Below, piece after piece: positions 14,106 to 38,879 of a stretch of 64,000 nucleotides of DNA. The translations under genes were made by a program, and so were the position numbers. Numbering within the stretch: the first letter of the stretch is position 1; each line of letters begins with the position of its first letter. The DNA lies in IMG/VR virus record IMGVR_UViG_3300008050_000030; one strand, given 5' to 3'. Source of the stretch: a virus. The notes below the pieces were generated by a model. It saw only the letters and a list, made by a program, of their open reading frames with translations, was not told the origin of the DNA and did no database searches.

Positions 14106-14431
14106 CCGACTGGAATCCGAGGTACATCGCCTACTGCGACTCCCTCGGCCTGACCCCTGAGCAGGAGCGCGCCAGCGTCGCCGAGCGCTTCCAAGGCTCC
14201 ACCACGATGCACGAGTTCATCATCTGGATGAGCGCGCGTCAGCGGGAGTTCCAGAAGGATCGGGAGTGCATCGCCAACGAGGACCCCGACCAAGAACGCT
14301 TCTGCTTCCACATGCACATCGCCTGCGACCGCGGGCAAAACGACTGGACGGCTTGGCTCCAAGAGCGGGCGATCCAGCTTCGAGAGGGCAGACCATGGAC
14401 TTCAATCTCCGGCAGCACACCCACCTGCTGA
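14102..14431 (+). CDS. hypothetical protein
   Basis: GTGA overlap start; 3' end overlaps next gene by 37 nt. Confidence 0.55.
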   Translation: MTDWNPRYIAYCDSLGLTPEQERASVAERFQGSTTMHEFIIWMSARQREFQKDRECIANEDPDQERFCFHMHIACDRGQNDWTAWLQERAIQLREGRPWTSISGSTPTC

Positions 14432-15510
14432 CCGTTGCAGGTTCCCGTGCCTACGGTATTCACACCGAGACCAGCGACGTCGACATGGCCGGCGTCGCCA
14501 TCCCCCCGAAGGAGTACACCTACGGCTTCCTGAAGAAGTTCGACCAAGCCGTCGGCAAGAGCCACTTCGGCGCCTTCGCGCACAGGCTCCACCTCGATGA
14601 GGCCCGGGCCTCCGTGAACGGGCTGGAGGGGGTGATCTACGACCTCCGCAAGTTCATGAAGCTGGCGTCGGACTGCAACCCCAACATCCTGGACGTCCTG
14701 TTCTGTCGCGACGATGAGGTCCGGCTCATGACCCCCACCGGCGAGTGGCTGCGTGACCGCCGAGACTGGTTCCTCAGCCAGAAGGCCAAGCACACCTTCA
14801 GCGGGTACGCGATGAGCCAGCTCAAGCGCATCCGTGGGCACCGGAACTGGCTACTCAGCCCTCCGACGGCGCCGCCCTCCCGGAGCGACTTCGGTCTGCC
14901 CGAGCGCACCGTCATCCCTGCTGATCAGCGAGGGGCGGCGCTGTCCCTGGTGAAGAAGCGGATGGCCTCGTGGGACGTGGACCTGGAGGTCCTGGACAAG
15001 CCGGACCGGCTCGCGGTGAAGGGAGAGCTGGAGGCGATGATGGTCGAGCTGCAGCTCGCCTCAGACACGGAGCTGTGGCAGGCCGCGGCGCGCACTGTCG
15101 GGCTCAGCGACAACTTCATCGACCTGCTGGAGCGGGAGCGCGGCTACCGCGCGGCCATGGGCAACTGGAAGCAGTACCAGAACTGGAAGACCAGCCGGAA
15201 CCCGGCTCGCGCTGCCCTGGAGGAGAAGTACGGCTACGACACGAAGCACGGCGGGCACCTCGTCCGCCTCATGAACATGGGGCTCGAGCTGCTCCAGACG
15301 GGGGAGCTCAACGTCTGGCGCGGCGACATCGACGCCGAGTTCATCCTCAGCGTGCGCGCTGGGCACCTCCCCTACGACGAGCTCATCCAGTGGGCCGAGG
15401 ACCGGGAGGCGCTGATGGACGAGGCGGTGAAGACCTCCCCGCTGCCGAAGAGGCCGAACCGCAAGAAGCTGGACGAGCTCTGCGTCCAGCTGATCGAGTC
15501 GAATCTGTAG
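14395..15510 (+). CDS. Pol-beta-superfamily nucleotidyltransferase (pfam10127-like)
   Basis: GSRAYGIHTETSDVDMAGVA is the NTase G-S...D-x-D signature; GAGGG SD before ATG. Confidence 0.7.
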   Translation: MDFNLRQHTHLLTVAGSRAYGIHTETSDVDMAGVAIPPKEYTYGFLKKFDQAVGKSHFGAFAHRLHLDEARASVNGLEGVIYDLRKFMKLASDCNPNILDVLFCRDDEVRLMTPTGEWLRDRRDWFLSQKAKHTFSGYAMSQLKRIRGHRNWLLSPPTAPPSRSDFGLPERTVIPADQRGAALSLVKKRMASWDVDLEVLDKPDRLAVKGELEAMMVELQLASDTELWQAAARTVGLSDNFIDLLERERGYRAAMGNWKQYQNWKTSRNPARAALEEKYGYDTKHGGHLVRLMNMGLELLQTGELNVWRGDIDAEFILSVRAGHLPYDELIQWAEDREALMDEAVKTSPLPKRPNRKKLDELCVQLIESNL

Positions 15511-16268: not shown

Positions 16269-16798
16269 TGCAGATTCTGACCGCCCCCCTCGTGGTGGCT
16301 GACCTCGACCTCGTGCAGGTCGTCCTCTGGAAGAAGGCCGTCGACTCGGCCCTGAACAAGGTGTCCGCCGAGGACACGGAGCTGCTTTGCGGCTTGCTCG
16401 ACTTCCTCAACGCTCTGCACGACGCCCACCCGGGCCTGGAGGACACCGCTCGAGCTGCCGAAGCCCTCACCGGCGAGGAGGAGCAGGACAACCTCGCTCC
16501 CGACGCCGTCGACCCCGACTTCGACCCGATGGCCATGCGCCACTGTGCCCAGGTCGGCCCCTTCGGCACGGAGGTCCCCTCCACCACGGACTTCGGCAAG
16601 AAGTACCGGGTCGAGTACACGGCCTACGGCAAGTGGGTCTGCTCCTGCCCCAACTTCCAGCAGCGCGGGGCGGTCTGCAGCCACATCAACACGGTGCAGT
16701 CGTCGCGATGCGACTGGCACCAGCTGCTCCACGGTGACGCCGCCAAGGCCCCCGACTACAAGTGCCCCAAGTGCGGCGGGCCGACCAGCGAGGTGTGA
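16268..16798 (+). CDS. SWIM zinc-finger protein
   Basis: CSCPNFQQRGAVCSHI fits the SWIM C-x-C-xn-C-x-H motif; AGGAGAACCTGATG context. Confidence 0.7.
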   Translation: MQILTAPLVVADLDLVQVVLWKKAVDSALNKVSAEDTELLCGLLDFLNALHDAHPGLEDTARAAEALTGEEEQDNLAPDAVDPDFDPMAMRHCAQVGPFGTEVPSTTDFGKKYRVEYTAYGKWVCSCPNFQQRGAVCSHINTVQSSRCDWHQLLHGDAAKAPDYKCPKCGGPTSEV

Positions 16799-16799
16799 G

Positions 16800-17759
16800 A
16801 TGCAGACCGACGACGAGCTGTACGCGAGCCTTGTGCTCCCCTGGGAGGCCGACAACGCCTCCTCCATCAACATCCAGGGCGCCGACGACCTCGACGCGGC
16901 GCTGACGATGGCGGACCTGGACTGGACCGCGGCGAGCCGCCCGCTCCTGTTCCGGGATCCCGACGACGAGACCAACCTGATCGAGGTGGAGACCCACAAG
17001 GCGGTGGTGCGGGAGGACACGCTGGACCAGATCGGCGTGGTCGGTGTCACCTACGAGATCGTGCAGAACCGAGAGGCTCTGTCCCTGCTCCGCGGCATCG
17101 CCGGCCGGGGCAAGGACCTCACCTTCGTCCGAGGAGGCACCTTCAAGGAGGGCCGGGTCGTCTGGGTGATGCTCAGCATCGACGACTTCCTCATCGAGCC
17201 GGTGCCGGGAGACGTGCTCATCCCCTACATCCTCATCTCGAACAGCCACAACGGCAGTCAGGGGGTGCGAGCCACGTTCTCGGCCCACCGACACGCCGGG
17301 CTGAGCGTGCACAACGTCGGTCGGGGGCTGAGTTTCCGGCACACGAGGCACGTGGTCGATCGGATGGAGCGCGGGGAGAGCGTCCTGGCCGCCGGGCTGG
17401 ACTCCTTCGAGCGGTTCCACGACTTCGCCCTCGACCTGGCGCAGCAACCGATGCCGCAGGAGGACTGGGAGGCCTTCCTGGACGCCTTCATCCCGCCCCC
17501 GGAGGAGGGAGTCCGCCCTGGGCGCCGCAACAAGGCCAGGGCGACGCTCACGCGCCTCTTCGAGTCCGGGCCGGGCACGGACATCCCGGGTGTCAAGAAG
17601 ACGCGCTGGGCGGCGCTCAACGCCGTCTCGCTGTGGCAGACGCACTTCGCCTCGTCCAAGGACGGGGAGAAGGCCCTGAACTCGCTCTGGTTCCAGAGCG
17701 GGGCGTCCAAGCTGGACGTGGCGGCAGGCCTGCTGAGGAAGCTGCACGCGGTGCGGTGA
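16800..17759 (+). CDS. DUF932-like phage/plasmid-associated protein
   Basis: ILISNSHNGSQGVRATFSAHR resembles the DUF932 core; last gene of the + block. Confidence 0.65.
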   Translation: MQTDDELYASLVLPWEADNASSINIQGADDLDAALTMADLDWTAASRPLLFRDPDDETNLIEVETHKAVVREDTLDQIGVVGVTYEIVQNREALSLLRGIAGRGKDLTFVRGGTFKEGRVVWVMLSIDDFLIEPVPGDVLIPYILISNSHNGSQGVRATFSAHRHAGLSVHNVGRGLSFRHTRHVVDRMERGESVLAAGLDSFERFHDFALDLAQQPMPQEDWEAFLDAFIPPPEEGVRPGRRNKARATLTRLFESGPGTDIPGVKKTRWAALNAVSLWQTHFASSKDGEKALNSLWFQSGASKLDVAAGLLRKLHAVR

Positions 17760-17770
17760 TCAGAGCTAAG

Positions 17771-17805
17771 CAAGGACCCCGACCGTCGTGGTCGGGGTCC
17801 TTGCG
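17771..17805. terminator. bidirectional hairpin between convergent blocks
   Basis: CAAGGACCCCGACC-GTCGT-GGTCGGGGTCCTTG preceded by GCTAAG; a second, smaller hairpin follows. Confidence 0.6.
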
Positions 17806-17868
17806 AAAGGGAGTTTGTCTACGGACGAGATCGGCGTCCCTTATGAAAGGGTCGGGGCCGATCCTTTC

Positions 17869-18132
17869 TTAGCTGGAGTCGGGATCAGTGGCCTCAGCCA
17901 GCTCCTGGGGGGTCTTCTTGCGGATCAGCGCGCTGTACAGGTGGCGTTCGCGATCGATGCCCTTGATCATCACCTCGACATCCAGGGTCCGGGCCGCCCA
18001 GAGGGGGAAGTCACGGGGGAAGGAGGGGTCGCGGGTTCGGATGTCGAGGGAGGCTCCCGCAGGCATCTGTGTCCAGGCCGCCATGAGGAAGGCGAGGAAG
18101 GGGATCTCTTGCAGGTCGATGCGGTGTGTCAT
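17869..18132 (-). CDS. hypothetical protein (87 aa)
   Basis: High GC3; ATGA overlap with upstream small ORF. Confidence 0.55.
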   Translation of the reverse strand: MTHRIDLQEIPFLAFLMAAWTQMPAGASLDIRTRDPSFPRDFPLWAARTLDVEVMIKGIDRERHLYSALIRKKTPQELAEATDPDSS

Positions 18133-18224
18133 TTGAACGATTGGTAGATCTTCCACGCTAAGGCCACCGCGAGCGTCACCATGAGGGTGACGCCCGCGGC
18201 GAAGCCGAGGATGAAGCAGGTCAC
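18129..18224 (-). CDS. possible 31-aa hydrophobic membrane peptide
   Basis: GTGA-coupled to upstream gene; all codons GC3-rich; single TM. Confidence 0.3.
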   Translation of the reverse strand: MTCFILGFAAGVTLMVTLAVALAWKIYQSFK

Positions 18225-18487
18225 TCCAGGACGGGCCCGAGCCGTCGCTCGAGCTCGCCCCAGTCGAGGCCAGCGATGCCGGTGACCGGCTTGACCTTGT
18301 GGGTCGTCCAGGCCGCGGGGTCGACCCGCATCTCCAGAGGCGGGTCGATGTCGACGACGATGAGAGCCTCCCCCTCCTTCGCGGGCGGGAACATCTCTCG
18401 CAGACGGGCAGCATCATCTTGGGTGAACTCGGCGCCCTTGCACGATGAAGTGCACGGAACCTTTCCACAGTCAGCGCAGTGGATCAT
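18221..18487 (-). CDS. Cys-rich small protein
   Basis: GGGATAAGTAGAGTAGATCCCAACCAGGAGGCCCCATG upstream context. Confidence 0.6.
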   Translation of the reverse strand: MIHCADCGKVPCTSSCKGAEFTQDDAARLREMFPPAKEGEALIVVDIDPPLEMRVDPAAWTTHKVKPVTGIAGLDWGELERRLGPVLE

Positions 18488-18525
18488 GGGGCCTCCTGGT
18501 TGGGATCTACTCTACTTATCCCGCG
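18488..18525 (-). promoter_or_regulatory. start-associated cassette
   Basis: GGGATAAGTAGAGTAGATCCCAACCAGGAGGCCCCATG. Confidence 0.55.
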
Positions 18526-18531
18526 GATCGA

Positions 18532-19611
18532 CTACGAGCTGATCTGGAAGAGGTCAGCCTGCTCGAAGGCGACGGACAGCTTCAGCAGCCCCGAACGGAC
18601 GTCCCGGGCCATGTCCTCTCCGATGTCCACGACGTACTTGCGGATGGCCCGAGAGACCTGCCGCGCCGTGCCCTCCGGCAGCCGCACCTCCGGGACCCGG
18701 CCGGACTCCGCGTGCCGGGCCAGCAGGGCGCTCAGGCGGTCCTCCAGCTCACGGAGTTCGACCCCCATCGGGGCCGTCTCCTGGATGACGTTCTCTCCTC
18801 GCGGGAGCTGTCGCCGGCGGATGCGGGTGCCGTTCTCGCGCTCCACATCGCCCCCGCCCCCGAGGCCGAGGCCCGAAGCGGTGCGCCGCGTCTTCTTCAT
18901 CTCGTTCATCTGGGCCTTGATGGCCGGGCGCCCGCCCTGCGTGGCGACGGCGATGGGGCGCCCTTGCTCCCGGGCCTGGCGCTTGGCCTCCTCCTTCATC
19001 TCCCAGGCCTCCTCGTAGGTCAGCGGGGTGTTGCCCTTGGAGAAGGCTCGGACGCTTCGCTCGAGCTCGTCGTGCACCGACAAGGCGCCCAGCGTGTCGC
19101 GCTGGGCGTAGGAGCGCAGGGAGTCTGCCGACCGAGGGCGGTCGCGGTCATCTGCAGCAAAGGCCGCGCCCACGCCGAGGAAGGCGTACCGGGCAGCGTC
19201 GGACATGTCACCGCTGAAGGGCCCCTGGGCGGGCATGTCCCGGCTCTTGCTGAACTTCAGCTCCCGCGTCGGCGAGGAGTCCTGGATGGCGAGGATCATG
19301 TCCGCGTCGAAGGGGTGGCTGGCGAAGCCGGCCGGCTTCGCCATCTCGCGCGCCGCCAGGAAGCGGTTGCGGGACTCCGCGGCCCGCACGTCTGCGGCCT
19401 GCAGCTCGTGCTCGTGGAAGATCTCCCGGTGGCTGCGGTCGGCCTGGACCCACCAGAAGCCCGGGAGGTCCGTGACCTCCGAGACGACCTTGCCCACGAT
19501 GGGCCCGGTACGCAGAGCTCCTCCCGTGGGGGAGCGGTTGCCGATCTTGAACTCGTAGTAGCTGCCCTTGGTGGGCGAGGTGGCGACGATGTCGCCGATG
19601 TGGGGGATCAT
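18532..19611 (-). CDS. hypothetical protein (359 aa)
   Basis: CGGAGACACCATG context; high GC3. Confidence 0.75.
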   Translation of the reverse strand: MIPHIGDIVATSPTKGSYYEFKIGNRSPTGGALRTGPIVGKVVSEVTDLPGFWWVQADRSHREIFHEHELQAADVRAAESRNRFLAAREMAKPAGFASHPFDADMILAIQDSSPTRELKFSKSRDMPAQGPFSGDMSDAARYAFLGVGAAFAADDRDRPRSADSLRSYAQRDTLGALSVHDELERSVRAFSKGNTPLTYEEAWEMKEEAKRQAREQGRPIAVATQGGRPAIKAQMNEMKKTRRTASGLGLGGGGDVERENGTRIRRRQLPRGENVIQETAPMGVELRELEDRLSALLARHAESGRVPEVRLPEGTARQVSRAIRKYVVDIGEDMARDVRSGLLKLSVAFEQADLFQISS

Positions 19612-19844
19612 GGTGTCTCCGAATCGCCGCGGTAGTTGGCGGCTTCACGTAGGGAGCCCTCCCAGGTCAGGAGGGCGAAGGGTCCGGCGCCCAGCAGGAA
19701 CTGCGGGCCGTCGTACCAGTCTTCTTGGAGGCCCCAGACCCACTCGGATCGGGGCAGGAGCAGGTGAAGGGCGAAGCCTCGCCAGCCGGCGCAGATCAGG
19801 CCGGCGTTCTTCTCGAGGCCGAAGGACAGGAGCCAGGCGCTCAT
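19608..19844 (-). CDS. hypothetical Trp-rich small protein
   Basis: ATGA overlaps on both sides. Confidence 0.5.
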   Translation of the reverse strand: MSAWLLSFGLEKNAGLICAGWRGFALHLLLPRSEWVWGLQEDWYDGPQFLLGAGPFALLTWEGSLREAANYRGDSETP

Positions 19845-22515: not shown

Positions 22516-22878
22516 TCATTCCACAGGTTTCCACACTCCCATGTGCAGCTGGAACTGCCCCGTCTCGACGACCCCGAAGAGCAGGTCGCCGTGCTCCTCG
22601 AGCAGGTCTTCGACTCGTCCTTCGAGCTGGCCCCGAGTCAGGGCCGGCTCGCCCGGCCCCCCGAACCCGCTGCTGTCGCAGAAGAGGGTGTCGATTCGCT
22701 CGTGCTTCTCGTCGACGTCGTCGGCGCTGTCGCCGAGGTTCGGGAAGCCGCCGAGCTTGGCGACATCGGTCAGGCTGAAGAACGAGGAGGGGCTCAGGCG
22801 CAGGGGCTGCTTGCCTTCCTCTCGCGCCTTGTCCCCGGCCTCCCGGTTCAGCTCGTTGATCGTCTCAAGTCCCCACAT
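22516..22878 (-). CDS. hypothetical acidic protein (120 aa)
   Basis: AAGGAGTGACACGATG context; high GC3. Confidence 0.65.
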   Translation of the reverse strand: MWGLETINELNREAGDKAREEGKQPLRLSPSSFFSLTDVAKLGGFPNLGDSADDVDEKHERIDTLFCDSSGFGGPGEPALTRGQLEGRVEDLLEEHGDLLFGVVETGQFQLHMGVWKPVE

Positions 22879-22882
22879 CGTG

Positions 22883-23275
22883 TCACTCCTTGATCTTGTT
22901 CCAGCGCTTCACCGTTCGGGTGAATTGGCGCCACAGGGTGTCTCCGGGCCGTACCTTGTCCCGGGCCTGGCCCTCATCCGAGGTCTCCGCCCACAGCTCG
23001 TCGTCGGGGCCCAGCACCTGCCACCACCGTCCCGGGTCGGGCAGGGGAAGGAACCAGGCGATGGCCTCCTCCATGGCGGCATCGAACTCCTCGCGGGTCG
23101 GGTAGACCCCGTGGTTGGTGCCGCGCTTGCCGCTGCGGCTCGTGGTCGTGTAGCTGCCGCTCACCTTGTCGCCCCGCAACGACCAGCTCTCGTCGCCCTC
23201 GAAGCGGACGGCGACGAAGTCGGCGGTGCAGGTGAAGCCGATGACTCGGCCCCCGGCCTTGCCTCGAACAGTCAT
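22883..23275 (-). CDS. hypothetical protein (130 aa)
   Basis: CTGGAGAGATCATG context. Confidence 0.6.
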   Translation of the reverse strand: MTVRGKAGGRVIGFTCTADFVAVRFEGDESWSLRGDKVSGSYTTTSRSGKRGTNHGVYPTREEFDAAMEEAIAWFLPLPDPGRWWQVLGPDDELWAETSDEGQARDKVRPGDTLWRQFTRTVKRWNKIKE

Positions 23276-23526
23276 GATCTCTCCAGTTCCCACTGCCAGT
23301 GCTTGAGGATGTCGGGCAGGCGCTTCAGGGAGTAGAACGGCGGATGGGCGTAGTCGGACGCGCTGGGCTCGACCCAGTGACCGCCGGAGAAGACGACCGA
23401 GGTGATGCGTACCTCGGTCGTCTCGCCGTCTTCGTCCTCCCAGATGACGACGGTCCAGTCCTCTTCAGGCTGCGCCTCCATCTTCGCCAGCTTCTTCTTG
23501 CCGATGGGCTTCAGCTTCGGGCTCAC
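23272..23526 (-). CDS. hypothetical protein (84 aa)
   Basis: GTG after AAGGGGGTG; ATGA-coupled downstream. Confidence 0.6.
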   Translation of the reverse strand: MSPKLKPIGKKKLAKMEAQPEEDWTVVIWEDEDGETTEVRITSVVFSGGHWVEPSASDYAHPPFYSLKRLPDILKHWQWELERS

Positions 23527-23891
23527 GACACCCCCTTCGCACGTTCCTGTGCGCGTTGCAGGTGGGCGGAGGTGATGACGGAGACCACGAACAGTTCGTG
23601 ATCGACCTCCATCAGCAGTTCCTTGCAGTAGTACCGGCTGCGCACGGCGTGCCGGGTCTTCCGTGCGCAGACGGGGTCATCGCCGTGGGCGCAGTCGACG
23701 ACGCAGTCGGAGTAGCGGTCAGCGTCCAGCTCTTCGGTGACGTCGAGGATCAGCTCGTAGCCCTGCACGGTGGAGACGAGGAGCCTCTGGCCCACCGCGG
23801 AGTGCGCGAACCCGTGCAAGGTCACGTCCTTGAGGTCCACGACGTCGCCGCCGAGGCGGGCTTCCAGCACTTTGGGAACGATCACGTCCAT
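23523..23891 (-). CDS. hypothetical protein (122 aa)
   Basis: GAGAAGGG SD; high GC3. Confidence 0.65.
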   Translation of the reverse strand: MDVIVPKVLEARLGGDVVDLKDVTLHGFAHSAVGQRLLVSTVQGYELILDVTEELDADRYSDCVVDCAHGDDPVCARKTRHAVRSRYYCKELLMEVDHELFVVSVITSAHLQRAQERAKGVS

Positions 23892-24274
23892 CCCTTCTCG
23901 AGCTTGATGCTCTTCTCGGCGAGGAGCACGTCGGCACGTCCGTAGCTCATGTCCATGACGAAGAGCATCAGGAGCTGGGCCAGCTCGGCCCCGTTCTCGG
24001 CGACTCGCAGGGACTGGAGCATGTGGTCGTACTTCCCCTTGTCCTGGGCCTGGTCGCGCAGCCGCCGGAAGGGCAGCCGTGCGGTGTGGGCCTCGTCCCG
24101 GAACACGGTGTCGGACAGCCCCCAGCTGTGCGCGAGGTTGCGCACGGTCTCGGGAAGCTGCTCGAAGCGGGCCCGAAGGTCCTCAGGCGAGAGCTTCTCG
24201 TCGGGGCCGACCACGGTGTCGTGGAAGGCGTTCACTCCGCCGCGATCGGCGAAGAGTTCATCGGTGGTCTGCAT
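23882..24274 (-). CDS. hypothetical protein (130 aa)
   Basis: TGATG coupling to upstream gene. Confidence 0.65.
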   Translation of the reverse strand: MQTTDELFADRGGVNAFHDTVVGPDEKLSPEDLRARFEQLPETVRNLAHSWGLSDTVFRDEAHTARLPFRRLRDQAQDKGKYDHMLQSLRVAENGAELAQLLMLFVMDMSYGRADVLLAEKSIKLEKGWT

Positions 24275-24801
24275 CAGGCGTGGTCCACGAAGAAGCGCGG
24301 CAGCCGCTCAGCGGGCTCCGGCTCTTCTTGATTCGGGGTGTCGGCGACGTCGGCGTAGGGGGTGATGTAGAGCGAGTAGTCCTTCATCCGCTTGCCTCCT
24401 CCCAGGTCGATGTAGCCGTTCCAGGTGACCCGGACGGGGTCGCTGGGACCGACCTGCGAGGCATCGATGAGCTGGATGAGCTTCACCCCGGAGAGGGTGA
24501 AGGCGCCGACGCCGGGGACGATGATGAGCGCCACCTCGTAGGGGCCGTACTGCCCCTGGTACAGCGTCCGCCCGGCGTAGTAGCCGGCCAGCTCGCTGCC
24601 CTCCACCTCTGGGCGCCACCGCTGAGGCGCCCGGACCTGCTTCCAGTCGTAGCGCTCCAGGATGTCGTCGCCGACCACCTCAGGCCGCGGACGGCTCTTG
24701 AGGCACTCGAAGCAGGTCACCTTGGCCCAGTCCCTGGTGGAGTCGACGTCCTCCTCGGTGCAGTTGGGGGCTTCGGCGGAGCTGTACCAGTGCGTGATCA
24801 T
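24274..24801 (-). CDS. hypothetical protein (175 aa)
   Basis: GGAGGAGCGAGGATG context. Confidence 0.6.
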   Translation of the reverse strand: MITHWYSSAEAPNCTEEDVDSTRDWAKVTCFECLKSRPRPEVVGDDILERYDWKQVRAPQRWRPEVEGSELAGYYAGRTLYQGQYGPYEVALIIVPGVGAFTLSGVKLIQLIDASQVGPSDPVRVTWNGYIDLGGGKRMKDYSLYITPYADVADTPNQEEPEPAERLPRFFVDHA

Positions 24802-25199
24802 CCTCGCTCCTCCGGCTTGGCGCGCAGGCAGTCGGCGCAGGTGACCTCGGCCCACACCCCAGTGGTGTAGTCGTCGTCGCCTGCGCCGACGCAGTTCTTG
24901 GTGTCGGTGTGCCAGTGCGTCACGGCCCCGGCCTGGACCGGACCGACACCGACGTGCCCGACGAAGCCGCACTTGCACAGGAAGAAGGACGGGCCCTCGT
25001 AGTCGGCCTCCTGGGGGGCGAGCAGGACCACCCGGCTGTGGCAGCCGGGGCAGGTGCTCGACTCCATCTCGGTGACGATGTACGGGCTGGCTTCCGCCCG
25101 CTCGATCGACTCGACCTTCATGGTCAGCTCGAGCTTGATGCCGATGTCGCCGTCATCGTCGATGCCGACGAGGCAGCGGGGGCAGGTGAGATCACTCAT
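24798..25199 (-). CDS. zinc-binding protein with four CxxC pairs
   Basis: CPRC...CPGC...CKC...CADC; GGAGGG SD. Confidence 0.65.
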   Translation of the reverse strand: MSDLTCPRCLVGIDDDGDIGIKLELTMKVESIERAEASPYIVTEMESSTCPGCHSRVVLLAPQEADYEGPSFFLCKCGFVGHVGVGPVQAGAVTHWHTDTKNCVGAGDDDYTTGVWAEVTCADCLRAKPEERG

Positions 25200-25432
25200 G
25201 ATCAGGCTCCCTCCTGAGGATAGCTCCCTCCTCCATGGTGTCCCCGTGCTTGGGGGTGCCGAACTGGGTGATCTTGTTGTGGTGCGGGATCCTCTGCACG
25301 GCTCGAATCCCTCTGGCCGCGTAGGCTTGCCACGGTCCCCAGCTCTTGTCGGGGCGTCGCCGACGCCCCCACCTCTGGCCGCGAGTGAGGGCGCGGAGGG
25401 TGTCGCCCTCCTTGTAGACGGGACGCATGGCT
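25192..25432 (-). CDS. hypothetical basic protein (80 aa)
   Basis: GAGGAGTAGCCATG context. Confidence 0.5.
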
Positions 25433-25499
25433 ACTCCTCGGATTGAAAATGGGCCACACCGCTCGTAGAAGCTGGTGTGGCGGTCCGGCATGTCGGTGT

Positions 25500-25826
25500 T
25501 CAGCAAGTTGAGGATGTCCTGCATCCCCTCGGGCGCCCCCTCAAGGGCACGGGGTGCTTGCCCATGCAGAGCTCGCACACCGTGACCGTGGTGGTCAAGA
25601 ACACCGTCGTCAGCTCTTCGTCCGGGCCCAGAACCCGTGCCAGCGCGGCCTCGCCCCCGAGCATCATCGTCAGTCCCTGCTGGCGGTTCAGGGCGTCCGA
25701 CTTCACCCCGTGCCGCTCCAGCGTCATCCTCCAGAAGAGCGGGAGGCCGCCGGCGCCGATGGGCTTGTCGCACAGCTTGCAGATCGCAGCCGCCCGCAGC
25801 GCATCCTCACGCATGGGGCCCGCCAT
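25500..25826 (-). CDS. hypothetical Cys-containing protein
   Basis: TGATG coupled to upstream gene. Confidence 0.5.
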   Translation of the reverse strand: MAGPMREDALRAAAICKLCDKPIGAGGLPLFWRMTLERHGVKSDALNRQQGLTMMLGGEAALARVLGPDEELTTVFLTTTVTVCELCMGKHPVPLRGRPRGCRTSSTC

Positions 25827-26167
25827 CAGAGGTCCCGCAGCTTGATGTGGAAGGCGCCGGTCTCCTCGCGGAGGAAGAGGCGACGTTGGACGTACCAGAT
25901 CTCCTTGAACTCGGGGTAGCCCGGGTCGATGGGGAAGAGGGACAGGGAGACGAGGACCGTGACGGTCTCGACGTCGATGTCGTCGAAGCTGAGGTCCCGC
26001 ACGATCTCGAGGTCCAGCTCGCCGTCGATCGGGTCGATGCTGATGCGGACCGAGGTGACGTCGCCGTCGACGATGGCGTAGGCGAAGAAGTCCCCCATGT
26101 CGTCGACGAAGTAGCCCCACTCCATCGAGCGCAGGTAGGCGCACAGGCTGTTGATGTCGTCGCCCAT
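25826..26167 (-). CDS. hypothetical acidic protein (113 aa)
   Basis: GAAGGAGG SD; high GC3. Confidence 0.6.
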   Translation of the reverse strand: MGDDINSLCAYLRSMEWGYFVDDMGDFFAYAIVDGDVTSVRISIDPIDGELDLEIVRDLSFDDIDVETVTVLVSLSLFPIDPGYPEFKEIWYVQRRLFLREETGAFHIKLRDL

Positions 26168-26496
26168 CACGCACCTCCTTCGGCGGCCACGGCCTTGGAG
26201 TAGAGCGCGGTCAGCGAGGGGATGGGGGCGAGCCTCTTCCAGCGCTCCCCGATCCAGCCGTAGAAGAGGTCCCCGCTGTAGAGGATGTCGCCTCCACGGG
26301 GCCGCAACCCCTCCTGCAGGGCCCCCTCGGACTCGTTGAGCCAGCGCACGGCGAAGTCGTGGTCGGCGCGGTGTCCCGCGGGCACGGAACGGGTGAGGTT
26401 GACGCGGCTGTCCGGGGGAACGCCGGCGTTGGAGTCGGTGACGAAGAAGACGGTGCGCAGGTGGTCACCGTTGCGGAAGAGGCGGATGCGGTGCAT
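26167..26496 (-). CDS. hypothetical protein (109 aa)
   Basis: CCTGGAGATCTTCAATG context. Confidence 0.55.
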   Translation of the reverse strand: MHRIRLFRNGDHLRTVFFVTDSNAGVPPDSRVNLTRSVPAGHRADHDFAVRWLNESEGALQEGLRPRGGDILYSGDLFYGWIGERWKRLAPIPSLTALYSKAVAAEGGA

Positions 26497-26719
26497 TGAA
26501 GATCTCCAGGTCGGTCCACGACTGCCCGAGGCAGTGGTGCATGGTGGCGATGAAGGAGGTGCCGAGGCCCAGCTGGGCCTCCAGCCACTCCTGCGAGACG
26601 GCGTTGTCGTTGAAGCGGCAGGGGAATCCGCGAGAAGCGCAGTGCCCCAAGACGTGGGCAGGGAGTTCGACGAGCCGGCGCTGGCGCGTCTCGAAGATCT
26701 TGCCGGGTGCGCGAGGCAT
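26465..26719 (-). CDS. hypothetical Cys/His small protein
   Basis: Cassette GGGATAAGGGGCGTAGACCACCAACCCGGAGAACCAATG. Confidence 0.5.
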   Translation of the reverse strand: MPRAPGKIFETRQRRLVELPAHVLGHCASRGFPCRFNDNAVSQEWLEAQLGLGTSFIATMHHCLGQSWTDLEIFNAPHPPLPQR

Positions 26720-26995
26720 TGGTTCTCCGGGTTGGTGGTCTACGCCCCTTATCCCTCCCTCCAACTCTCAGTTGACGCTAAGGAGGGGCGCCACTCCCTC
26801 GACTGTCCCGGCGCACTCGCAACGGGACCAACACGAACTTCATGATCTTTGTCTCCAGGGGTGCGGTTGCCTTATCCCGCTGCGCACGCATGAAGGTGCA
26901 GGGGAGCGACCCTGGTGAAGGATCCCACGGGGAGGGTGTAGGGAGAGAGAGAGAGGGAGGGAGAGCAATGCTCGGGAGCCGGGATCTTGTCGAAC

Positions 26996-27011
26996 ACAAC
27001 TGCGCAGTTGT
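26996..27011. promoter_or_regulatory. perfect 16-bp palindrome ACAACTGCGCAGTTGT
   Basis: Longest version of the recurring CAACTG/CAGTTG half-sites. Confidence 0.55.
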
Positions 27012-27124
27012 CATTCGGCAGAGGCCGTGCGTCCTCCCAGAGAAACAGCAACACCTAGTTGCTCAACAGGGAACTGCGCAAGCGGTCCGAAATCTACGAC
27101 AACCGAGTGTCCTACGCTAAGCGA

Positions 27125-27153
27125 GACCCTCCCCCCAGCGTAGGGGAGAGGGT
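27125..27153. terminator. GC-rich hairpin
   Basis: GACCCTCCCC-CCAGCGTA-GGGGAGAGGGTC, preceded by GCTAAG. Confidence 0.55.
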
Positions 27154-27187
27154 CTGCTTCCAGAGTGCCACGCGGCGACCCCTGGAA

Positions 27188-27205
27188 GAGCGCCGCGCGG
27201 CGCTC
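27188..27205. terminator. perfect palindromic hairpin GAGCGCCGCGCGGCGCTC
   Basis: 18-bp self-complementary sequence just after the stop of the 27205..27405 gene. Confidence 0.55.
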
Positions 27206-27405
27206 TAGTTCGAGGTGTCGGGCTCCTCGGCCTTGGGGGCCTCGGCCTCCTCGGCCTTGGAGAACTTGCCCTTGATCCAGGTGACGGCCTTGCCACCGGT
27301 GCGGGACCAGATCGGCATGGCGGCGACGCCGCTCAGGAAGGTGAGGGCCAGCACGAGGGCGAGCTTGACGAGGGACTGGGCGGTGAAGCGGGCGATGGTC
27401 TTCAT
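27205..27405 (-). CDS. small single-pass membrane protein (MKTIA-family paralog)
   Basis: MKTIARFTAQSLVKLALVLALTF; full promoter cassette upstream. Confidence 0.55.
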   Translation of the reverse strand: MKTIARFTAQSLVKLALVLALTFLSGVAAMPIWSRTGGKAVTWIKGKFSKAEEAEAPKAEEPDTSN

Positions 27406-27588
27406 GATCTTGACTCCAGGGGTTGGTAGGAACGCGTCGCAGAGAGCACTTGCTTCCTGGACACTTCTCTTATCCCCCCGTAGAGGGCTGATTTCACGAG
27501 ATCCGTATATCTCTGCGGCTATCTCAATTCCTGGGCGAGGGGCCTTCATGAGGTAACTGTGTAGTGGCCGCCGATTCAGGGCCCGGAT

Positions 27589-27733
27589 GCCAACCGCTTG
27601 TTGTACCCCCCGCCGGTCGGGGACTTAGGCGTCAACTGCTTGTTGTAGTGACCGCTGGTTTGGGACCTGGGTGCCAACTGCTTGTTGCTCCCATATACCT
27701 GGCCCGGAATCTGGAGTGACAACCACTTGTTGC
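27589..27733. repeat. four tandem direct repeats with about 42-bp period
   Basis: Cores CAACCGCTTGTTG 27591, CAACTGCTTGTTG 27633 and 27675, CAACCACTTGTTG 27720. Confidence 0.7.
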
Positions 27734-27796
27734 TAAGGACAATCGGCCGGGGACCCGGGGCAACGGCATGCAGCCATGTACCCCGGGTCCCAGATC

Positions 27797-28560: not shown

Positions 28561-28753
28561 CCAACGCTAAGGGAGGGGGATTGGCGATCCCCTTAGCCCA
28601 GATCCCGAAGGAGCTGGTCCCATGAGAGGAAACCTCACCTGCGGCCGGGGCGTCCGGCCGGCGGGGATCGAACCCGCTCCTGTTCATGCCCAGCCCCCTG
28701 CTGCGTGTACGTGGAGGTGCCGGCCTCACCGCAGCAGGGGGTTTGTCGATCAC

Positions 28754-29852: not shown

Positions 29853-29965
29853 GATCTTCTCCGGGGAAGGGGTTCACACCTCTTATCCCCCCATACCAAC
29901 TGGAAGTTGTCAGCTAAGCAGGAGCGAGGGGGGACCCTCGCTGCGACTGCTTTCGGCCCGCCCCC

Positions 29966-30285
29966 CTAGAAGGGGGACAGGTCTTCCAGCCCGGTTCCGA
30001 ACCGGGCCCGGACTGCGTCCCACACGCGGCACGCCGCGTAGTACGGCAGCCCAATGGGTGCCGTCACCACCAGCAGGGCGGCCATGCCCGCGCGCTGCCA
30101 GCCCGACTCCGACGAGTCGGAGGCGAACCCGACCCCGGTCCCGTACAGGGACCCGAGCATCCTCGTCACCGTGACGGTGATGAAGGAGGCGGCGGCGAGA
30201 GCCAGCGGCCGGAGCGCTGCCGTGAGGCAGCGGGTCAGCAGGGTGGCGATGAACTTGGCGAGGAACTTGGCGATGGTCTTCATAT
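29966..30285 (-). CDS. small membrane protein (MKTIA-family paralog)
   Basis: MKTIAKFLAKFIATLL; CCCTGGAGTTCGATATG context. Confidence 0.6.
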
Positions 30286-30563
30286 CGAACTCCAGGGAAC
30301 GAAGACGGCAGGGGCGCGAGAAAACCTCGCAAAGCCTCCTGTTGGTGACACTTCTCTTATCCCCGAAACACCCCCTTTTTCTGCACTTTGCAGCTGCCCT
30401 CACGCCTCCCCATCGAGCGGGTAAGTGTGCCCCTCGGCCCCGGTCAAGGGGCGCGTTTGACGGGCGGGCCGCCCGAGCTATTGCTCCCAGAGTCAGCCAG
30501 GGGTTATTGCCCCTGACCTGTCGCGCGGGGATCGAACCCGCCTCCCTTCACACCTGTCGTCAG

Positions 30564-31151
30564 CTACCCAGCCGGACTCGAACCGGCCCTTTCCTGGATC
30601 GTCTGCTCTCGGTACCAGCACCAGTAGGTCTCGGTGTGGTGCCGCCGCCATGGGTTGTGCCCTTCCGGCTTCGGCACCAAGTCCCAGGCGACCCCGCGGC
30701 TGTGGGTGCGCCGAGGCCGCTGCTTGCAGCCGGGGTCGGGGTCGTGGATGCCCCAGTACTCCGACTTCAGCGCGTAGCAGTAGACGCGGCCCCTCCCTCG
30801 GCCCCAGCGGATGGCCTGATCGATCTCCCAGGGCAGGTCCGCCTCGGCGATCTCAGGCAGGTACCCGTGCTCCTCCACCAGCCGAGTGAGCATCCTCTGG
30901 CCCAGCGCCCTCCTCTCTGCCTTCGTCATCGGGATGAGCGGAGGCCGGGAGGGGAACTTGGGGAGCTCGCCCTCCCAGAGCCGCTTGCAGTCCCCGCAGA
31001 CGTCCTCGGCGAAGATGGACTCGAGCGGGCGCTCGACAGGGTCCTTGGGCAGCGCGTTGTGGTCGACGCCGGCGATGTGCGCCTTGCCTGTGTTCCACGG
31101 GTCCTTCAGGCCGAGCTGGTACTCGGTACGCCGGGCCTGGATGAACCTCAT
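30564..31151 (-). CDS. Cys/His-rich hypothetical protein, possibly HNH-like
   Basis: CGDC...CYALKSEYWGIHDPDPGC...H..H; preceded by a 12-codon uORF. Confidence 0.6.
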   Translation of the reverse strand: MRFIQARRTEYQLGLKDPWNTGKAHIAGVDHNALPKDPVERPLESIFAEDVCGDCKRLWEGELPKFPSRPPLIPMTKAERRALGQRMLTRLVEEHGYLPEIAEADLPWEIDQAIRWGRGRGRVYCYALKSEYWGIHDPDPGCKQRPRRTHSRGVAWDLVPKPEGHNPWRRHHTETYWCWYREQTIQERAGSSPAG

Positions 31152-31990: not shown

Positions 31991-32061
31991 ATCAGCGAGG
32001 GGGACTCGAACCCCCAACATCTCCTTTGCGCGGGAGGGCTCTACCATTGAGCTATCTCTGA
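31991..32061 (-). tRNA. tRNA-like gene with defective anticodon arm
   Basis: Canonical D-arm TAGCTCAATGGTAGAGC and T-arm GGGGGTTCGAGTCCCCC; acceptor stem with one A-G mismatch; anticodon arm is only CTCC/GGAG with an 8-nt loop lacking U33; no encoded CCA. Confidence 0.5.
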
Positions 32062-32097: not shown

Positions 32098-32298
32098 CTA
32101 AGCGCAGAGCCCCTCGAAGAGGGGGTGCGCAGTCGTCTCAGGACAGATCGGAGAGCACGAGGAGGACCAGCCAGCGCCGGCCCCCTCACGCCAGATGACG
32201 TAGTCCTTGCCTTCGTGGCGGTGGGTCCCGCATCGGCGGGCGGTGCGGGGCGGCTTGTCCACGATCACCGCCACCCCCAGCCGGGTCTTGACCCTCAT
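32098..32298 (-). CDS. small Cys/His protein (66 aa)
   Basis: ATGA-coupled; stop TAG lies inside the CTTAGC element. Confidence 0.5.
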   Translation of the reverse strand: MRVKTRLGVAVIVDKPPRTARRCGTHRHEGKDYVIWREGAGAGWSSSCSPICPETTAHPLFEGLCA

Positions 32299-35778: not shown

Positions 35779-35983
35779 TCATGTCCCTCGGTAAGCATTG
35801 TGGAGGTCGGGCCGACGATCGCATCGGAAAGTCTGTTGTGTCTTGTGCACGTCCGTCCTCTAGCAACCTCCTTATACCTGCGAGATCACAGCACTTTCAG
35901 GGCTAAAGATGCGGTCCTTTCGGTCCTAGATCGAGGTCACGACTCCTCTTGAAGTGATCACCTGTGGTTTTGATCTACTCTAT

Positions 35984-36166
35984 TTATGCCTCCAGGCGCC
36001 CGCGGATTTCACTCCGCAGGCGCCCATCAGCACGTTCTCTCAGCCGCCCCGTCAGGACGTAGATGACCTCGCCGATCGGGCGGGCGACGAGGTTGTGGGC
36101 GGTCCACTGCAGCCGGCGGGGAAGCCGGTCGAGCAGCGGGGCGAAGAAGCCAGTCTTCTGTTCCAT
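35984..36166 (-). CDS. hypothetical small protein
   Basis: CCTGGAGATCTGATG context; its stop lies inside a motif copy GGCATAAATAGAGTAGATC. Confidence 0.45.
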   Translation of the reverse strand: MEQKTGFFAPLLDRLPRRLQWTAHNLVARPIGEVIYVLTGRLRERADGRLRSEIRGRLEA

Positions 36167-38399: not shown

Positions 38400-38879
38400 T
38401 CAGGGGCAGTTCTCGTTCACGAACTCACGAGCTTCATCGGGCCGCAACTCGGCCCCGAAGTAGTCCTCCCGGGCGAAGGTCGTCTCCACGAGATCGTGTC
38501 CGTGGCGCCCCCAGCTGTGGGATCGCCAGACCCCGTCGTCGAGGCAGTATCCGGTGATGAGGACGAGCCTCTCGTCGAGAAGCCACTCGTGGGAGATGTT
38601 GGAGTGGCAGCGTCCGGCCTCCCCCTCCCGGAGCTGGATCTTCTCCGGGCGGTAGGGCTGGCCGCGCTCGAGGAGGATCTTCAGATGCTCCTCGATGCCG
38701 TTGACGCAGATCTCTTCCCCTCCCTCAGCGAGGAGCACCTCCCGCAGTCTTGCCAGCGCCGGCTGCACGCGTAGGGCGCTCTCGTACCTCGATCTCAGGA
38801 AGGTCAGTTGTCGTGGGGTCATCAGGCAGTCGTTGCTGAAGGAGTCGTTGAGCGCGCTTCGGCTCGGTTCCGAAGGCAC
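38400..38879 (-). CDS. hypothetical protein (GTG 38879 or ATG about 38822)
   Basis: Strong GC3; +1 frame relative to the 3' tail of the sigma factor ORF. Confidence 0.55.
   Translation of the reverse strand: MPSEPSRSALNDSFSNDCLMTPRQLTFLRSRYESALRVQPALARLREVLLAEGGEEICVNGIEEHLKILLERGQPYRPEKIQLREGEAGRCHSNISHEWLLDERLVLITGYCLDDGVWRSHSWGRHGHDLVETTFAREDYFGAELRPDEAREFVNENCP

What the first reader, a model, noticed from the sequence alone, without database searches (positions are those of the whole stretch)
26765..27200. About 440-bp non-coding hub with purine tract, perfect palindrome, twin terminators and a mini-transcript
No frame shows the very high GC3 typical of genes here. The hub contains a cassette promoter copy (26870) that would drive only a 21-codon ORF (26778-26845) ending in a hairpin; a purine tract GAGAGAGAGAGAGGGAGGGAGAG; the 16-bp perfect palindrome at 26996; a lower-GC stretch; and two strong hairpins (27125-27153, and the perfectly self-complementary GAGCGCCGCGCGGCGCTC at 27188-27205). 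Candidate functions are an origin of replication, a packaging site or a regulatory RNA locus.
Basis: seen in the sequence. Interest (0 to 1): 0.55.

Follow-up and report, generated by a model that had tools for sequence, protein, structure and literature searches.

The report
Composite phage intergenic control region
The 485-bp gap is a real non-coding spacer in the early-gene block of an uncultivated ~188-kb phage, built from two strong terminator hairpins, spare copies of the phage's own operator palindrome, a length-variable GA repeat and two promoters that head a 12-gene operon; nothing supports a replication origin, packaging site or regulatory RNA.

Summary
All neighbouring genes are on the minus strand. 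Read in that direction, the gap holds: two very stable hairpins directly after the stop codon of a 66-aa gene; a CTTAGC element; two degenerate and two intact copies of the palindrome CAAC-N5/6-GTTG; a 26-nt GA/CT tract; a promoter box GGGATAAG with ribosome-binding site and a 21-codon ORF; then a second CTTAGC-palindrome-GGGATAAG promoter in front of a tightly packed 12-gene operon. GGGATAAG occurs 21 times (0.4 expected), always on the minus strand. The palindrome occurs 14 times (0.34 expected), always between genes. At eight promoters the palindrome overlaps the -35/spacer, which is the position of an operator. The "perfect palindrome" is a spacing variant of this operator. The GA tract is the only polymorphic spot in the gap, with three length alleles among near-identical strains. 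GC skew, DnaA boxes, AT content, Rfam, RNA folding and gene content give no support for an origin, packaging site or small RNA. The closest known kind is the composite terminator-promoter cassette (PeSL) of T4-like phages, here with an added operator. This is ordinary in kind, new in sequence and of modest interest.

The parts
27205..27405 (-). Gene C: 66-aa small membrane-type ORFan, the upstream transcription unit. Its stop codon overlaps the first hairpin.
   Evidence: GC3 0.98 and codon LLR +0.75. Called in the public assembly. No Pfam or PHROG hit.
27160..27210 (-). Terminator-like hairpin T1. It includes the 20-bp perfect palindrome 27187-27206, which can also fold alone at -15 kcal/mol. 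There is no U tail.
   Evidence: RNA fold -38.4 kcal/mol, z -5.7, 0 of 200 shuffles as stable. Palindrome listed.
27119..27160 (-). Terminator-like hairpin T2, a 17-bp stem. Its 3' side runs into CGCTTAGCG. There is no U tail.
   Evidence: RNA fold -32.6 kcal/mol, z -5.2. The same hairpin-then-CTTAGC layout occurs at other cassettes.
27116..27121 (-). CTTAGC element, the conserved junction between terminator hairpin and promoter part of the cassettes. Here it is followed only by degenerate promoter parts.
   Evidence: 12 of 15 minus-strand CTTAGC copies are intergenic, against 14% intergenic sequence. Alignment of promoters.
27071..27112 (-). Two degenerate palindrome copies: GGACACTCGGTTG at 27100-27112 and CGCTTGCGCAGTTC at 27071-27084 (10 of 14 match the N6 site). 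No GGGATAAG box follows. These look like a decayed cassette promoter.
   Evidence: Read directly from the sequence.
27049..27061 (.). Orphan operator-type palindrome CAACACCTAGTTG (CAAC-N5-GTTG), centred 177 bp upstream of the P2 box.
   Evidence: Exact family member; 14 copies in the window vs 0.34 expected. All copies are intergenic.
26996..27011 (.). The 16-bp perfect palindrome ACAACTGCGCAGTTGT, an N6 spacing variant of the operator. It is centred 125.5 bp upstream of the P2 box and 51.5 bp from the 27049 site.
26940..26965 (.). GA/CT tract with a 19-nt mirror repeat, able to form H-DNA. It is the only polymorphic spot in the gap: (TC)4, (TC)5 or (TC)6, plus a C3/C4 run nearby.
   Evidence: The contig of L037 ends inside the tract.
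26871..26878 (-). P2: a GGGATAAG promoter box without a palindrome. It is followed by a short leader and the RBS CCCCTGGAG (26853-26861).
   Evidence: One of 21 boxes, all on the minus strand, 0.40 expected. The RBS and start are nearly identical to those of gene C.
26778..26843 (-). 21-codon ORF MKFVLVPLRVRRDSRGSGAPP*, probably a leader ORF or remnant. Its stop TAG lies inside the next CTTAGC (26777-26782).
   Evidence: Codon LLR -0.34, GC3 0.73. The hairpin after it is weak (-8.5 kcal/mol, z -0.9). There is no extended homology to other cassettes.
26748..26774 (-). P1: palindrome CAACTGAGAGTTG (26762-26774), a 6-nt spacer and GGGATAAG (26748-26755). This is the main promoter and operator of gene A.
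   Evidence: Same geometry as seven other promoters: the palindrome ends 5-7 nt before the box.
22516..26719 (-). The operon headed by the gap: 12 tightly packed or overlapping ORFan genes (gene A is 26465-26719). It has one 71-nt internal gap and no internal GGGATAAG box.
   Evidence: Gene map, box positions, public gene calls.
27560..27735 (.). Array in the adjacent gap (outside the finding): four tandem 42-45-bp units, each carrying CAACAAGCAGTTG. The nearest site is centred 121 bp upstream of the palindrome-less promoter box of gene C (27469-27476). The gene D terminator hairpin (27745-27795) lies just upstream.
   Evidence: (TRF score 114), and 45 (hairpin -37.7 kcal/mol).

Best explanation
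The gap is the boundary and control region between two minus-strand transcription units in the early-type ORFan block of an uncultivated ~188-kb phage.

(1) Transcripts of the small gene C end at, or are stabilised by, two consecutive very stable hairpins that start in its stop codon. This insulates what lies downstream.

(2) Downstream lie parts of the phage's repeated terminator-promoter cassette: CTTAGC, two decayed palindromes and two intact ones. The palindrome CAAC-N5-GTTG is the binding site of an unidentified dimeric regulator. At eight promoters it covers about -33 to -21, which is operator position. Here the two promoter-less copies are about five helical turns apart and 125-177 bp upstream of promoter P2. 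I propose that they act as auxiliary operators. They would cooperate, for example by looping, with the operator in P1 and with the four-site array on the other side of gene C.

(3) P2 (box only, with an RBS and a 21-codon leader ORF) and P1 (operator plus box) together drive the 12-gene operon beginning with gene A.

(4) The GA/CT microsatellite between the auxiliary operators and P2 is a slippage-prone spacer.

Shown here: the anatomy, the enrichment statistics, the non-coding status, the hairpin stabilities and the polymorphism. Inferred: termination, promoter activity, regulator binding and looping.
For: All local genes are on the minus strand, and this is the largest gap of the 24-kb block; it sits directly in front of its longest operon.

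Hairpins: -38.4 and -32.6 kcal/mol, z about -5 to -6.

Promoter box: GGGATAAG occurs 21 times against 0.40 expected, all on the minus strand, each 19-47 nt before an RBS and start codon. One box lies 7 nt before the 5' end of an Rfam-confirmed tRNA, which fixes it as a -10-type element.

Palindrome: CAAC-N5-GTTG occurs 14 times against 0.34 expected, and all 16 N5/N6 copies are intergenic. In eight promoters the palindrome ends 5-7 nt before the box. Seven of the 16 sites lie within 1 kb around gene C.

Parallel layout: the nearest orphan site lies 125.5 bp from the P2 box in this gap and 121 bp from the gene C box in the next gap. Site spacings are 51.5 bp here and 42/42/45 bp there, close to whole helical turns.

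Read-through: there is no significant hairpin between the mini-ORF and gene A.

Non-coding status.

Phage sigma factor: a sigma-70-family protein is encoded in the same block.
Against: No experimental or transcript data are available.

The hairpins lack U tails, so they fail the canonical intrinsic-terminator pattern. They could instead be RNA-stabilising or processing structures.

No DNA-binding protein for the palindrome was found. Apart from the sigma factor, no helix-turn-helix family was recognised among 109 proteins. Gene A gave nothing: no family or PDB match, and the structure model was unusable at pLDDT 46.

The 16-bp palindrome has N6 rather than N5 spacing, which many dimeric binders would not tolerate.

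The degenerate copies and the decayed CTTAGC-palindrome suggest that part of the gap is relic sequence.

The only relatives available are at least 99.9% identical, so conservation cannot be used as a test.

The match of 121 and 125.5 bp rests on two cases only.
Confidence: 0.5

Rival explanations
1. Mostly relic. Only the hairpins and P1 (perhaps P2) are functional. The decayed CTTAGC-palindrome, the two orphan palindromes, the GA tract and the 21-codon ORF would be debris from recombination between, or decay of, terminator-promoter cassettes. This is the process by which PeSL cassettes reshuffle ORFans in T4-like phages.
For: CTTAGC at 27116-27121 is followed by a palindrome with one ruined half and no box, and a second 10/14 copy lies at 27071-27084.

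The P2 leader is 7 nt shorter than the usual one, and its ORF is only 21 codons with non-coding-like codon usage.

The RBS and start are nearly identical to those of gene C, but the homology stops there, as expected at a recombination junction.

The tract is unstable.

PeSL-mediated deletions leave this kind of junction (PMC2839356).
Against: Two orphan sites keep all 8 core bases. The chance of each occurring in 485 bp is about 0.003.

The neighbouring gap holds four intact in-phase copies at a similar distance from a palindrome-less promoter.

No cassette gain or loss is seen between the strains available.

No trace of a decayed protein was found.
Confidence: 0.28
2. Iteron-type replication origin or centromere-like partition site. 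The palindromes of this gap, together with the four-unit 42-bp array next door, would be bound by an initiator or ParB/SopB-like protein that also represses the eight promoters. Precedents are F sopC (tandem 43-bp units, each with an inverted repeat) and the dispersed centromere sites of phage N15; both are cited from my own knowledge.
For: Seven of 16 sites cluster within 1 kb. The array has a 42-45-bp period with one dyad-symmetric site per unit. Both gaps are somewhat GC-poor (0.62 and 0.59 against 0.667).
Against: There is no GC-skew turn; skew is positive on both sides and the minimum is at 4.7 kb.

There are no DnaA boxes and no AT-rich stretch: the lowest 40-bp GC is 0.475 in the gap and 0.425 next door, and the latter covers a promoter.

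No Rep, ParA, ParB, helicase, primase or polymerase family was recognised in the window or in the public gene calls for 10 kb on either side.

The same site has a fixed promoter geometry at eight genes, which a transcription factor explains more simply.
Confidence: 0.1
3. An unrecognised small gene. Candidates are a small protein, such as the 50-aa + strand ORF 26968-27120 that sits 4 nt after the SD-like GGGAGGGAGAG and ends just before hairpin T2, or a small RNA.
For: The purine tract gives a strong Shine-Dalgarno-like sequence upstream of ATG 26968. That ORF is followed by the two hairpins, which fold on either strand.
Against: The 50-aa ORF has GC3 0.53 and codon LLR -0.51, against at least 0.8 and +0.36 for real genes.

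There is no homolog and no gene call in any public assembly.

There is no + strand promoter match, no Rfam hit and no structure beyond the terminators.
Confidence: 0.05

Closest known systems
PeSL (promoter-early stem-loop) composite terminator/promoter cassettes of T4-like phages (PMC2839356; PMC4122927)
   Same: A short conserved motif joins a stem-loop terminator to a strong early-type promoter. It is repeated many times in one orientation between small ORFan genes in a plastic genome block. Each ORFan is thereby an insulated expression cassette, and recombination between copies can leave truncated junctions.
   Different: There is no sequence similarity; PeSLs are AT-rich with a GGGG...CCCC stem. 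Here the box is GGGATAAG with a CTTAGC junction, the hairpins lack U tails, and a subset of promoters carries an added palindromic operator. No cassette gain or loss was seen among the strains available, so the recombination role is untested.
Dispersed operator regulons of temperate actinophages: cluster A mycobacteriophage stoperators (PMC9283540; PMC6550527) and the conserved inverted repeats (CIRs) of phage phiC31 (own knowledge)
   Same: One short conserved site recurs many times in intergenic DNA. Some copies overlap early promoters, and others lie away from any promoter.
   Different: Stoperators are asymmetric 13-bp sites bound by a monomer and are orientation-dependent, whereas these sites are dyad-symmetric. 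No repressor or integrase was recognised in the window, and a lysogenic lifestyle is not indicated.
F plasmid sopC and phage N15 centromere sites (own knowledge)
   Same: This applies to the adjacent array: tandem ~43-bp units each hold one inverted repeat, and single copies of the same repeat lie in promoter regions elsewhere.
   Different: There are four diverged units rather than twelve near-identical ones. No ParA/ParB-type genes were found in the 84 kb examined. The gap itself holds only two irregularly spaced copies.
Hairpin-only ('I-shaped') terminators described for high-GC bacteria (own knowledge)
   Same: A long GC-rich stem lies directly after a stop codon without a U tract.
   Different: Whether such hairpins terminate at all is disputed, and function here is untested. 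Two occur in tandem.

Membership tests
PeSL-type composite terminator/promoter cassette | Conserved promoter motif repeated in intergenic spaces in one orientation | tested here: met
   GGGATAAG occurs 21 times against 0.40 expected, all on the minus strand and each upstream of an RBS and start. There are two copies in the gap.
PeSL-type composite terminator/promoter cassette | Stem-loop adjacent to the promoter that terminates the upstream unit | tested here: inconclusive
   Stable hairpins precede CTTAGC at several cassettes, including the gap. They have no U tail, and termination itself cannot be tested with these tools.
PeSL-type composite terminator/promoter cassette | Flanks small ORFan genes in a plastic region | tested here: met
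   Ten neighbouring proteins have no Pfam hit and one weak PHROG hit. Gene B has only itself among 5.8 billion proteins.
PeSL-type composite terminator/promoter cassette | Mediates cassette insertions or deletions between close relatives | tested here: not met
   The window and the ENA contig differ by 12 SNPs and two short indel loci over about 45 kb, with no cassette gain or loss. Only relatives at least 99.9% identical exist, so the test is weak.
PeSL-type composite terminator/promoter cassette | Sequence homology to T4-type PeSLs | tested here: not met
   The motif is different (GGGATAAG / CTTAGC in 66% GC DNA), and no phage record matches the region by DNA. Verdict: works like a PeSL but is not a member.
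Iteron-type replication origin | Array of regularly spaced repeats | tested here: not met
   The gap holds two intact sites 51.5 bp apart plus two degenerate ones. The regular 4 x 42-bp array is in the next gap.
Iteron-type replication origin | AT-rich unwinding element and/or DnaA boxes | tested here: not met
   The lowest 40-bp GC is 0.475. There are no DnaA boxes at up to 1 mismatch in 64 kb.
Iteron-type replication origin | Strand-composition switch at the site | tested here: not met
   G-C is +21 per kb to the left and +10 per kb to the right. The cumulative minimum is at 4746.
Iteron-type replication origin | Linked initiator or replication gene | tested here: not met
   No Rep, helicase, primase or polymerase family was found among 109 window proteins. 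The rest of the 188-kb genome was not examined.
Packaging (pac/cos) site | Position next to the terminase genes; defined genome ends | tested here: not met
   No terminase family was found in the window. Genome ends cannot be tested without reads.
Small regulatory RNA gene | Own promoter, own terminator, stable or conserved structure, or a known family | tested here: not met
   No Rfam match at E up to 1. No promoter box upstream of the core. Fold z -0.11. No diverged relatives are available for covariation.
Canonical intrinsic terminator | GC-rich stem-loop followed by a U tract | tested here: not met
   The stems are present, but the tails are UUCCAGG and UUAGCGU. The consensus scan does not call them.
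Operator of a phage transcription regulator | Dyad-symmetric site recurring at a fixed position overlapping promoters | tested here: met
   In eight promoters the palindrome ends 5-7 nt before the box, which places it at about -33 to -21. The TSS is calibrated by the tRNA.
Operator of a phage transcription regulator | A cognate DNA-binding protein | not testable with these tools
   No candidate was recognised.
Simple-sequence contingency locus | Repeat tract in a control region with length alleles among close strains | tested here: met
   (TC)4, (TC)5 and (TC)6 occur in genomes at least 99.93% identical. The tract lies 62 nt upstream of the P2 box.
Simple-sequence contingency locus | Tract length changes expression | not testable with these tools
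   Needs reporter assays or allele-resolved transcript data.

The most novel reading that the evidence does not exclude
The GA/CT microsatellite is a viral contingency switch. Slippage by 2-bp steps would change the helical phase and distance between the upstream auxiliary operators (26997, 27049) and the P2/P1 promoters. Sub-populations of an otherwise clonal phage would then express the 12-gene early operon at different levels. In this reading the whole 1-kb cluster of seven palindromes bracketing gene C acts as a looped nucleoprotein hub.
Probability: 0.08. Interest if true: 0.55.

Novelty: new member of a known kind. Interest (0 to 1): 0.28.

Why it matters
This phage lineage has essentially no annotated relatives, and the analysis gives a first readable regulatory grammar for it: a -10-type box (GGGATAAG), a CTTAGC junction, hairpin terminators and a palindromic operator. 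It also shows that the largest gap of the early block is the control region of its longest operon. This helps to annotate transcription units in similar metagenomic phages, and it suggests that PeSL-like cassette organisation has arisen outside the T4-like phages. The hypervariable GA tract and the seven-site palindrome cluster are concrete, cheap targets for experiments. None of this overturns current understanding.

Tried and rejected
Relatives for comparison:
- Megablast and blastn of the region against 50,697 phage records found nothing.
- Protein-guided scans of IMG/VR with gene B found nothing. A second scan was wasted on an out-of-frame translation of gene A.
- Promoter-pattern scans of viral, metagenome and genome collections gave only single chance hits in unrelated GC-poor contigs.
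- A homolog search with gene B found only itself.
- Only strains at least 99.9% identical exist, so covariation and conservation tests were impossible.

Decayed gene: tblastn of all 109 window proteins against the gap gave only noise. A local alignment of the mini-cassette against 13 other cassettes showed homology limited to the RBS and start.

Duplicated module: an alignment of 'last palindrome to P2' against the equivalent stretch of the next gap showed no homology.

Anti-Shine-Dalgarno pairing of the CU tract with the GA-rich P1 region: the pairing appears in the MFE fold, but the fold is not better than shuffles (z -0.63). Dropped.

Gene A as the palindrome-binding regulator, prompted by a helix-turn-helix-looking stretch: Pfam, NCBIfam and PDB gave nothing. 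The AlphaFold single-sequence model had pLDDT 46. The exhaustive HMMER search gave only spurious repeat-protein hits. This remains unresolved.

Locating the sigma factor with remembered RpoE and SigW sequences failed. It was found by Pfam instead.

Full report
CONTEXT. The window has 66% GC. It is a close variant (99.93% identity) of ENA metagenome contig ERZ27249009:k141_382418, which is 188,377 bp long. Identical or near-identical pieces occur in other samples: ERZ27249139, JGI 3300006923 and 3300025133, SRR5467136 and GCA_024449685.1. No phage record matches the region by DNA. Pfam recognises only a few of the 109 predicted proteins. These include a major-vault-protein-like 867-aa protein whose only phage relatives are huge uncultured phages at 38% identity, two ligase-like proteins, RlaP, DUF932, a lysin and a sigma-70-family protein. 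Just beyond the window lies an 1105-aa protein with a phage lysozyme domain. I take the element to be a large uncultivated phage. Genes form strand blocks. The finding lies inside a 24-kb minus-strand block (18.5-42.8 kb) made almost entirely of small ORFans.

THE OBSERVATION. The gap runs from the stop codon of gene C (27205-27405, minus strand, 66 aa) to the start codon of gene A (26465-26719, minus strand, 84 aa). At 485 bp (26720-27204) it is the largest gap of the block.

It is non-coding by every test I could run:
- No frame reaches the GC3 of real genes.
- All ORFs in the gap have non-coding-like codon log-odds. The exception is a 49-codon + strand ORF over the GC-rich hairpins, which has no RBS.
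- The public gene caller left the gap empty.
- The longest ORF has no match, not even itself, among 5.8 billion predicted proteins.
- No window protein has a paralog in the gap.

Each listed feature is at its stated place. Two corrections apply. The mini-ORF is 26778-26843. The hairpin after it is weak (-8.5 kcal/mol, z -0.9), so there is no 'mini-transcript'. A 16-bp perfect palindrome is not remarkable here in itself, because the window holds 13 palindromes of 16 bp or more against about 3 expected. The gap is not an assembly artefact: an independent assembly spans it.

THE REPEATED GRAMMAR OF THE BLOCK. Read on the minus strand, most genes of the block are preceded by a conserved cassette: a GC-rich hairpin, CTTAGC, often the palindrome CAACTGGSAGTTG, a 5-7-nt spacer, GGGATAAG-AGRAGT, a leader, CCCTGGAG and ATG.
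- GGGATAAG occurs 21 times against 0.40 expected, always on the minus strand.
- CAAC-N5-GTTG occurs 14 times against 0.34 expected.
- With two N6 variants, all 16 palindrome sites are intergenic, although only 14% of the window is intergenic.
- CTTAGC is intergenic in 12 of 15 minus-strand copies.
- One box lies 7 nt before the 5' end of an Rfam-confirmed tRNA. The box therefore behaves as a -10-type element with the start about 7 nt downstream.
- This places the palindrome at about -33 to -21. It overlaps the -35 region and spacer, which is the classical position of an operator.
- About half of the boxes have no palindrome, so the palindrome is a regulatory add-on and not part of the core promoter.
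- A phage sigma factor resembling RpoH/RpoS is encoded in the same block. Whether it or the host sigma reads GGGATAAG is unknown.

ANATOMY OF THE GAP, IN THE DIRECTION OF TRANSCRIPTION.
1. Two hairpins of -38.4 and -32.6 kcal/mol (z -5.7 and -5.2) begin in the stop codon of gene C. They have no U tails, so they are not canonical intrinsic terminators. The same hairpin-then-CTTAGC layout follows other genes of the block.
2. CTTAGC (27116-27121) is followed by a palindrome with one ruined half and no box, then by a 10/14 copy of the N6 palindrome. This looks like a decayed cassette promoter.
3. Two intact palindromes follow, at 27049-27061 and 26997-27010. They are 51.5 bp apart and neither has a box.
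4. The 26-nt GA/CT tract comes next.
5. P2 is a box without a palindrome (26871-26878), with a short leader. Its RBS and start are almost identical to those of gene C. It precedes a 21-codon ORF with non-coding-like codon usage.
6. P1 is CTTAGC, palindrome and box (26748-26782) in the standard geometry, followed by gene A.

Gene A opens a run of 12 tightly packed genes (26719 to 22516) with no further box. Upstream of the gap, in contrast, 27.2-34.3 kb consists of one- or two-gene cassettes. The largest gap of the block therefore heads its longest operon.

THE NEIGHBOURING GAP (27406-27796). It has the same plan: the gene D hairpin (-37.7 kcal/mol), CTTAGC, four tandem 42-45-bp units each with CAACAAGCAGTTG, and then a palindrome-less box for gene C. 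The nearest orphan site lies 121 bp from the box there and 125.5 bp from the box here. Seven of the 16 palindromes thus lie within 1 kb and bracket the gene C cassette. The spacings of 42, 42, 45 and 51.5 bp are close to whole helical turns. I read this as evidence that the orphan copies are functional auxiliary operators, acting through cooperative binding or looping. The evidence is thin, resting on two cases and no identified protein.

POLYMORPHISM. The window and the ENA contig differ by 12 SNPs, mostly at third codon positions, and by two short indel loci in about 45 kb. In the gap the only differences among four sequence sets lie in the tract:
- (TC)5 in the window.
- (TC)4 in ERZ27249009.
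- (TC)6 in ERZ27249139 and JGI 3300006923.
- A neighbouring C3/C4 run also varies.
One contig ends inside the tract. The tract is a 19-nt mirror repeat able to form H-DNA, and it is evidently prone to slippage. Whether its length matters for expression is unknown.

- Origin of replication. Cumulative GC skew rises through the gap (+21 per kb to the left, +10 per kb to the right), and its minimum is at 4.7 kb. There are no DnaA boxes and no AT-rich element. No replication genes were recognised.
- Packaging site. No terminase was found in the window, and the gap sits among early-type ORFans.
- Regulatory RNA. There is no Rfam match and no promoter for the 240-nt core. The core folds no better than shuffled sequence (z -0.11). 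The + strand score of z -3.2 comes from the same two hairpins.
- An anti-SD pairing of the CU tract with the P1 region appears in the fold but is not significant.

CONCLUSION. The gap is a composite transcription boundary and control region built from the phage's own terminator-promoter-operator parts. Some of those parts are intact and some are decayed.

Its nearest described analogue is the PeSL cassette of T4-like phages: small composite elements of a strong early promoter plus a stem-loop terminator that flank ORFans and recombine (PMC2839356, PMC4122927). The gap works like that but is not homologous to it, and it adds a dispersed operator. That operator recalls the stoperators of cluster A mycobacteriophages (PMC9283540, PMC6550527) and, from my own knowledge, the phiC31 conserved inverted repeats. 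The adjacent 42-bp array resembles F sopC in architecture (own knowledge). This keeps a centromere or iteron reading alive at low probability.

I rate the finding as a new member of a known kind, with modest interest.

Noticed in passing
window 27560-27735: There are four tandem 42-45-bp units, each with the dyad CAACAAGCAGTTG (TRF score 114, the strongest tandem repeat of the block). They lie between the gene D terminator hairpin and the palindrome-less promoter of gene C. The architecture resembles F sopC or an iteron array.
   Followed up: partly
window 38725-39816 (-): A 363-aa sigma-70-family protein (Sigma70_r2 + r4; best NCBIfam similarity to RpoH/RpoS) is encoded inside the same early-type block. 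A second sigma-like gene (Sigma70_r3, weak) lies just beyond the right end of the window (L038 1-438).
   Followed up: partly
window 31991-32061 (-): This tRNA is confirmed by Rfam (45 bits) and is driven directly by a palindrome-plus-GGGATAAG promoter. It has a 4-bp anticodon stem and an 8-nt loop; ARAGORN reads a four-base anticodon 'cgca'. It is possibly a quadruplet-reading or defective tRNA.
   Followed up: partly
window 29953-30029 and 30563-30657 (-); also ~28660-28680 and ~30525-30552: ARAGORN's tRNA-Pro and 95-nt tRNA-Thr calls are not supported by Rfam at E up to 0.1. Two other gaps contain T-arm-like GGGTTCGATCCCCGC sequences. These may be tRNA remnants or tRNA-like structures.
   Followed up: partly
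window 60489-63092 (-): An 867-aa protein carries major-vault-protein shoulder and Vault_3 repeat domains. Its only relatives in the phage collection are huge uncultured phages LR756500, LR756501 and LR756503 at about 38% identity.
   Followed up: partly
whole window, e.g. 8290-8309, 19320-19343, 47229-47248, 53696-53715, 57696-57719, 58433-58454: Long perfect palindromes are in excess: 7 of 20 bp or more against 0.17 expected, and 13 of 16 bp or more against about 3. Several lie inside coding regions.
   Followed up: no
window 16705-19725, 32180, 63207-63283: The window is not identical to ENA contig k141_382418. There are 12 SNPs, clustered at 16.7-17.2 kb and 19.6-19.7 kb and mostly at third codon positions, and a 1-nt indel in a C run at 32180. 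The indel lies inside a doubtful 66-codon ORF (32098-32298).
   Followed up: partly
window 4784-6991 (+), 14266-15510 (+), 58316-59797 (-): A nucleic-acid repair set is present: a LigD 3'-phosphoesterase + ligase OB + KTSC fusion, an RlaP-type nucleotidyltransferase and a second ATP-dependent ligase-like protein.
   Followed up: no
window 35944-35994 and gap 35779-35983: This is the lowest-GC spot of the window (0.35 over 40 bp). It sits in a 205-bp gap with a variant box (GGTATAAGG). If an AT-rich unwinding element exists in the window, this is the best candidate.
   Followed up: no
window 27405, 28497, 29194, 30283 (gene starts, minus strand): A family of small proteins with similar N-termini (MKTIARF..., MKTLARL..., MKAFIRL..., MKTIAKF...) and hydrophobic helices. 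Each has its own cassette promoter. They are probably paralogous small membrane proteins.
   Followed up: no
window 25429-25499: This is the only internal gap of the 12-gene operon. It holds an 8-bp GC hairpin (GCCACACC...GGTGTGGC) followed by CATTTTCAAT, a possible internal attenuator or terminator with a T run.
   Followed up: no
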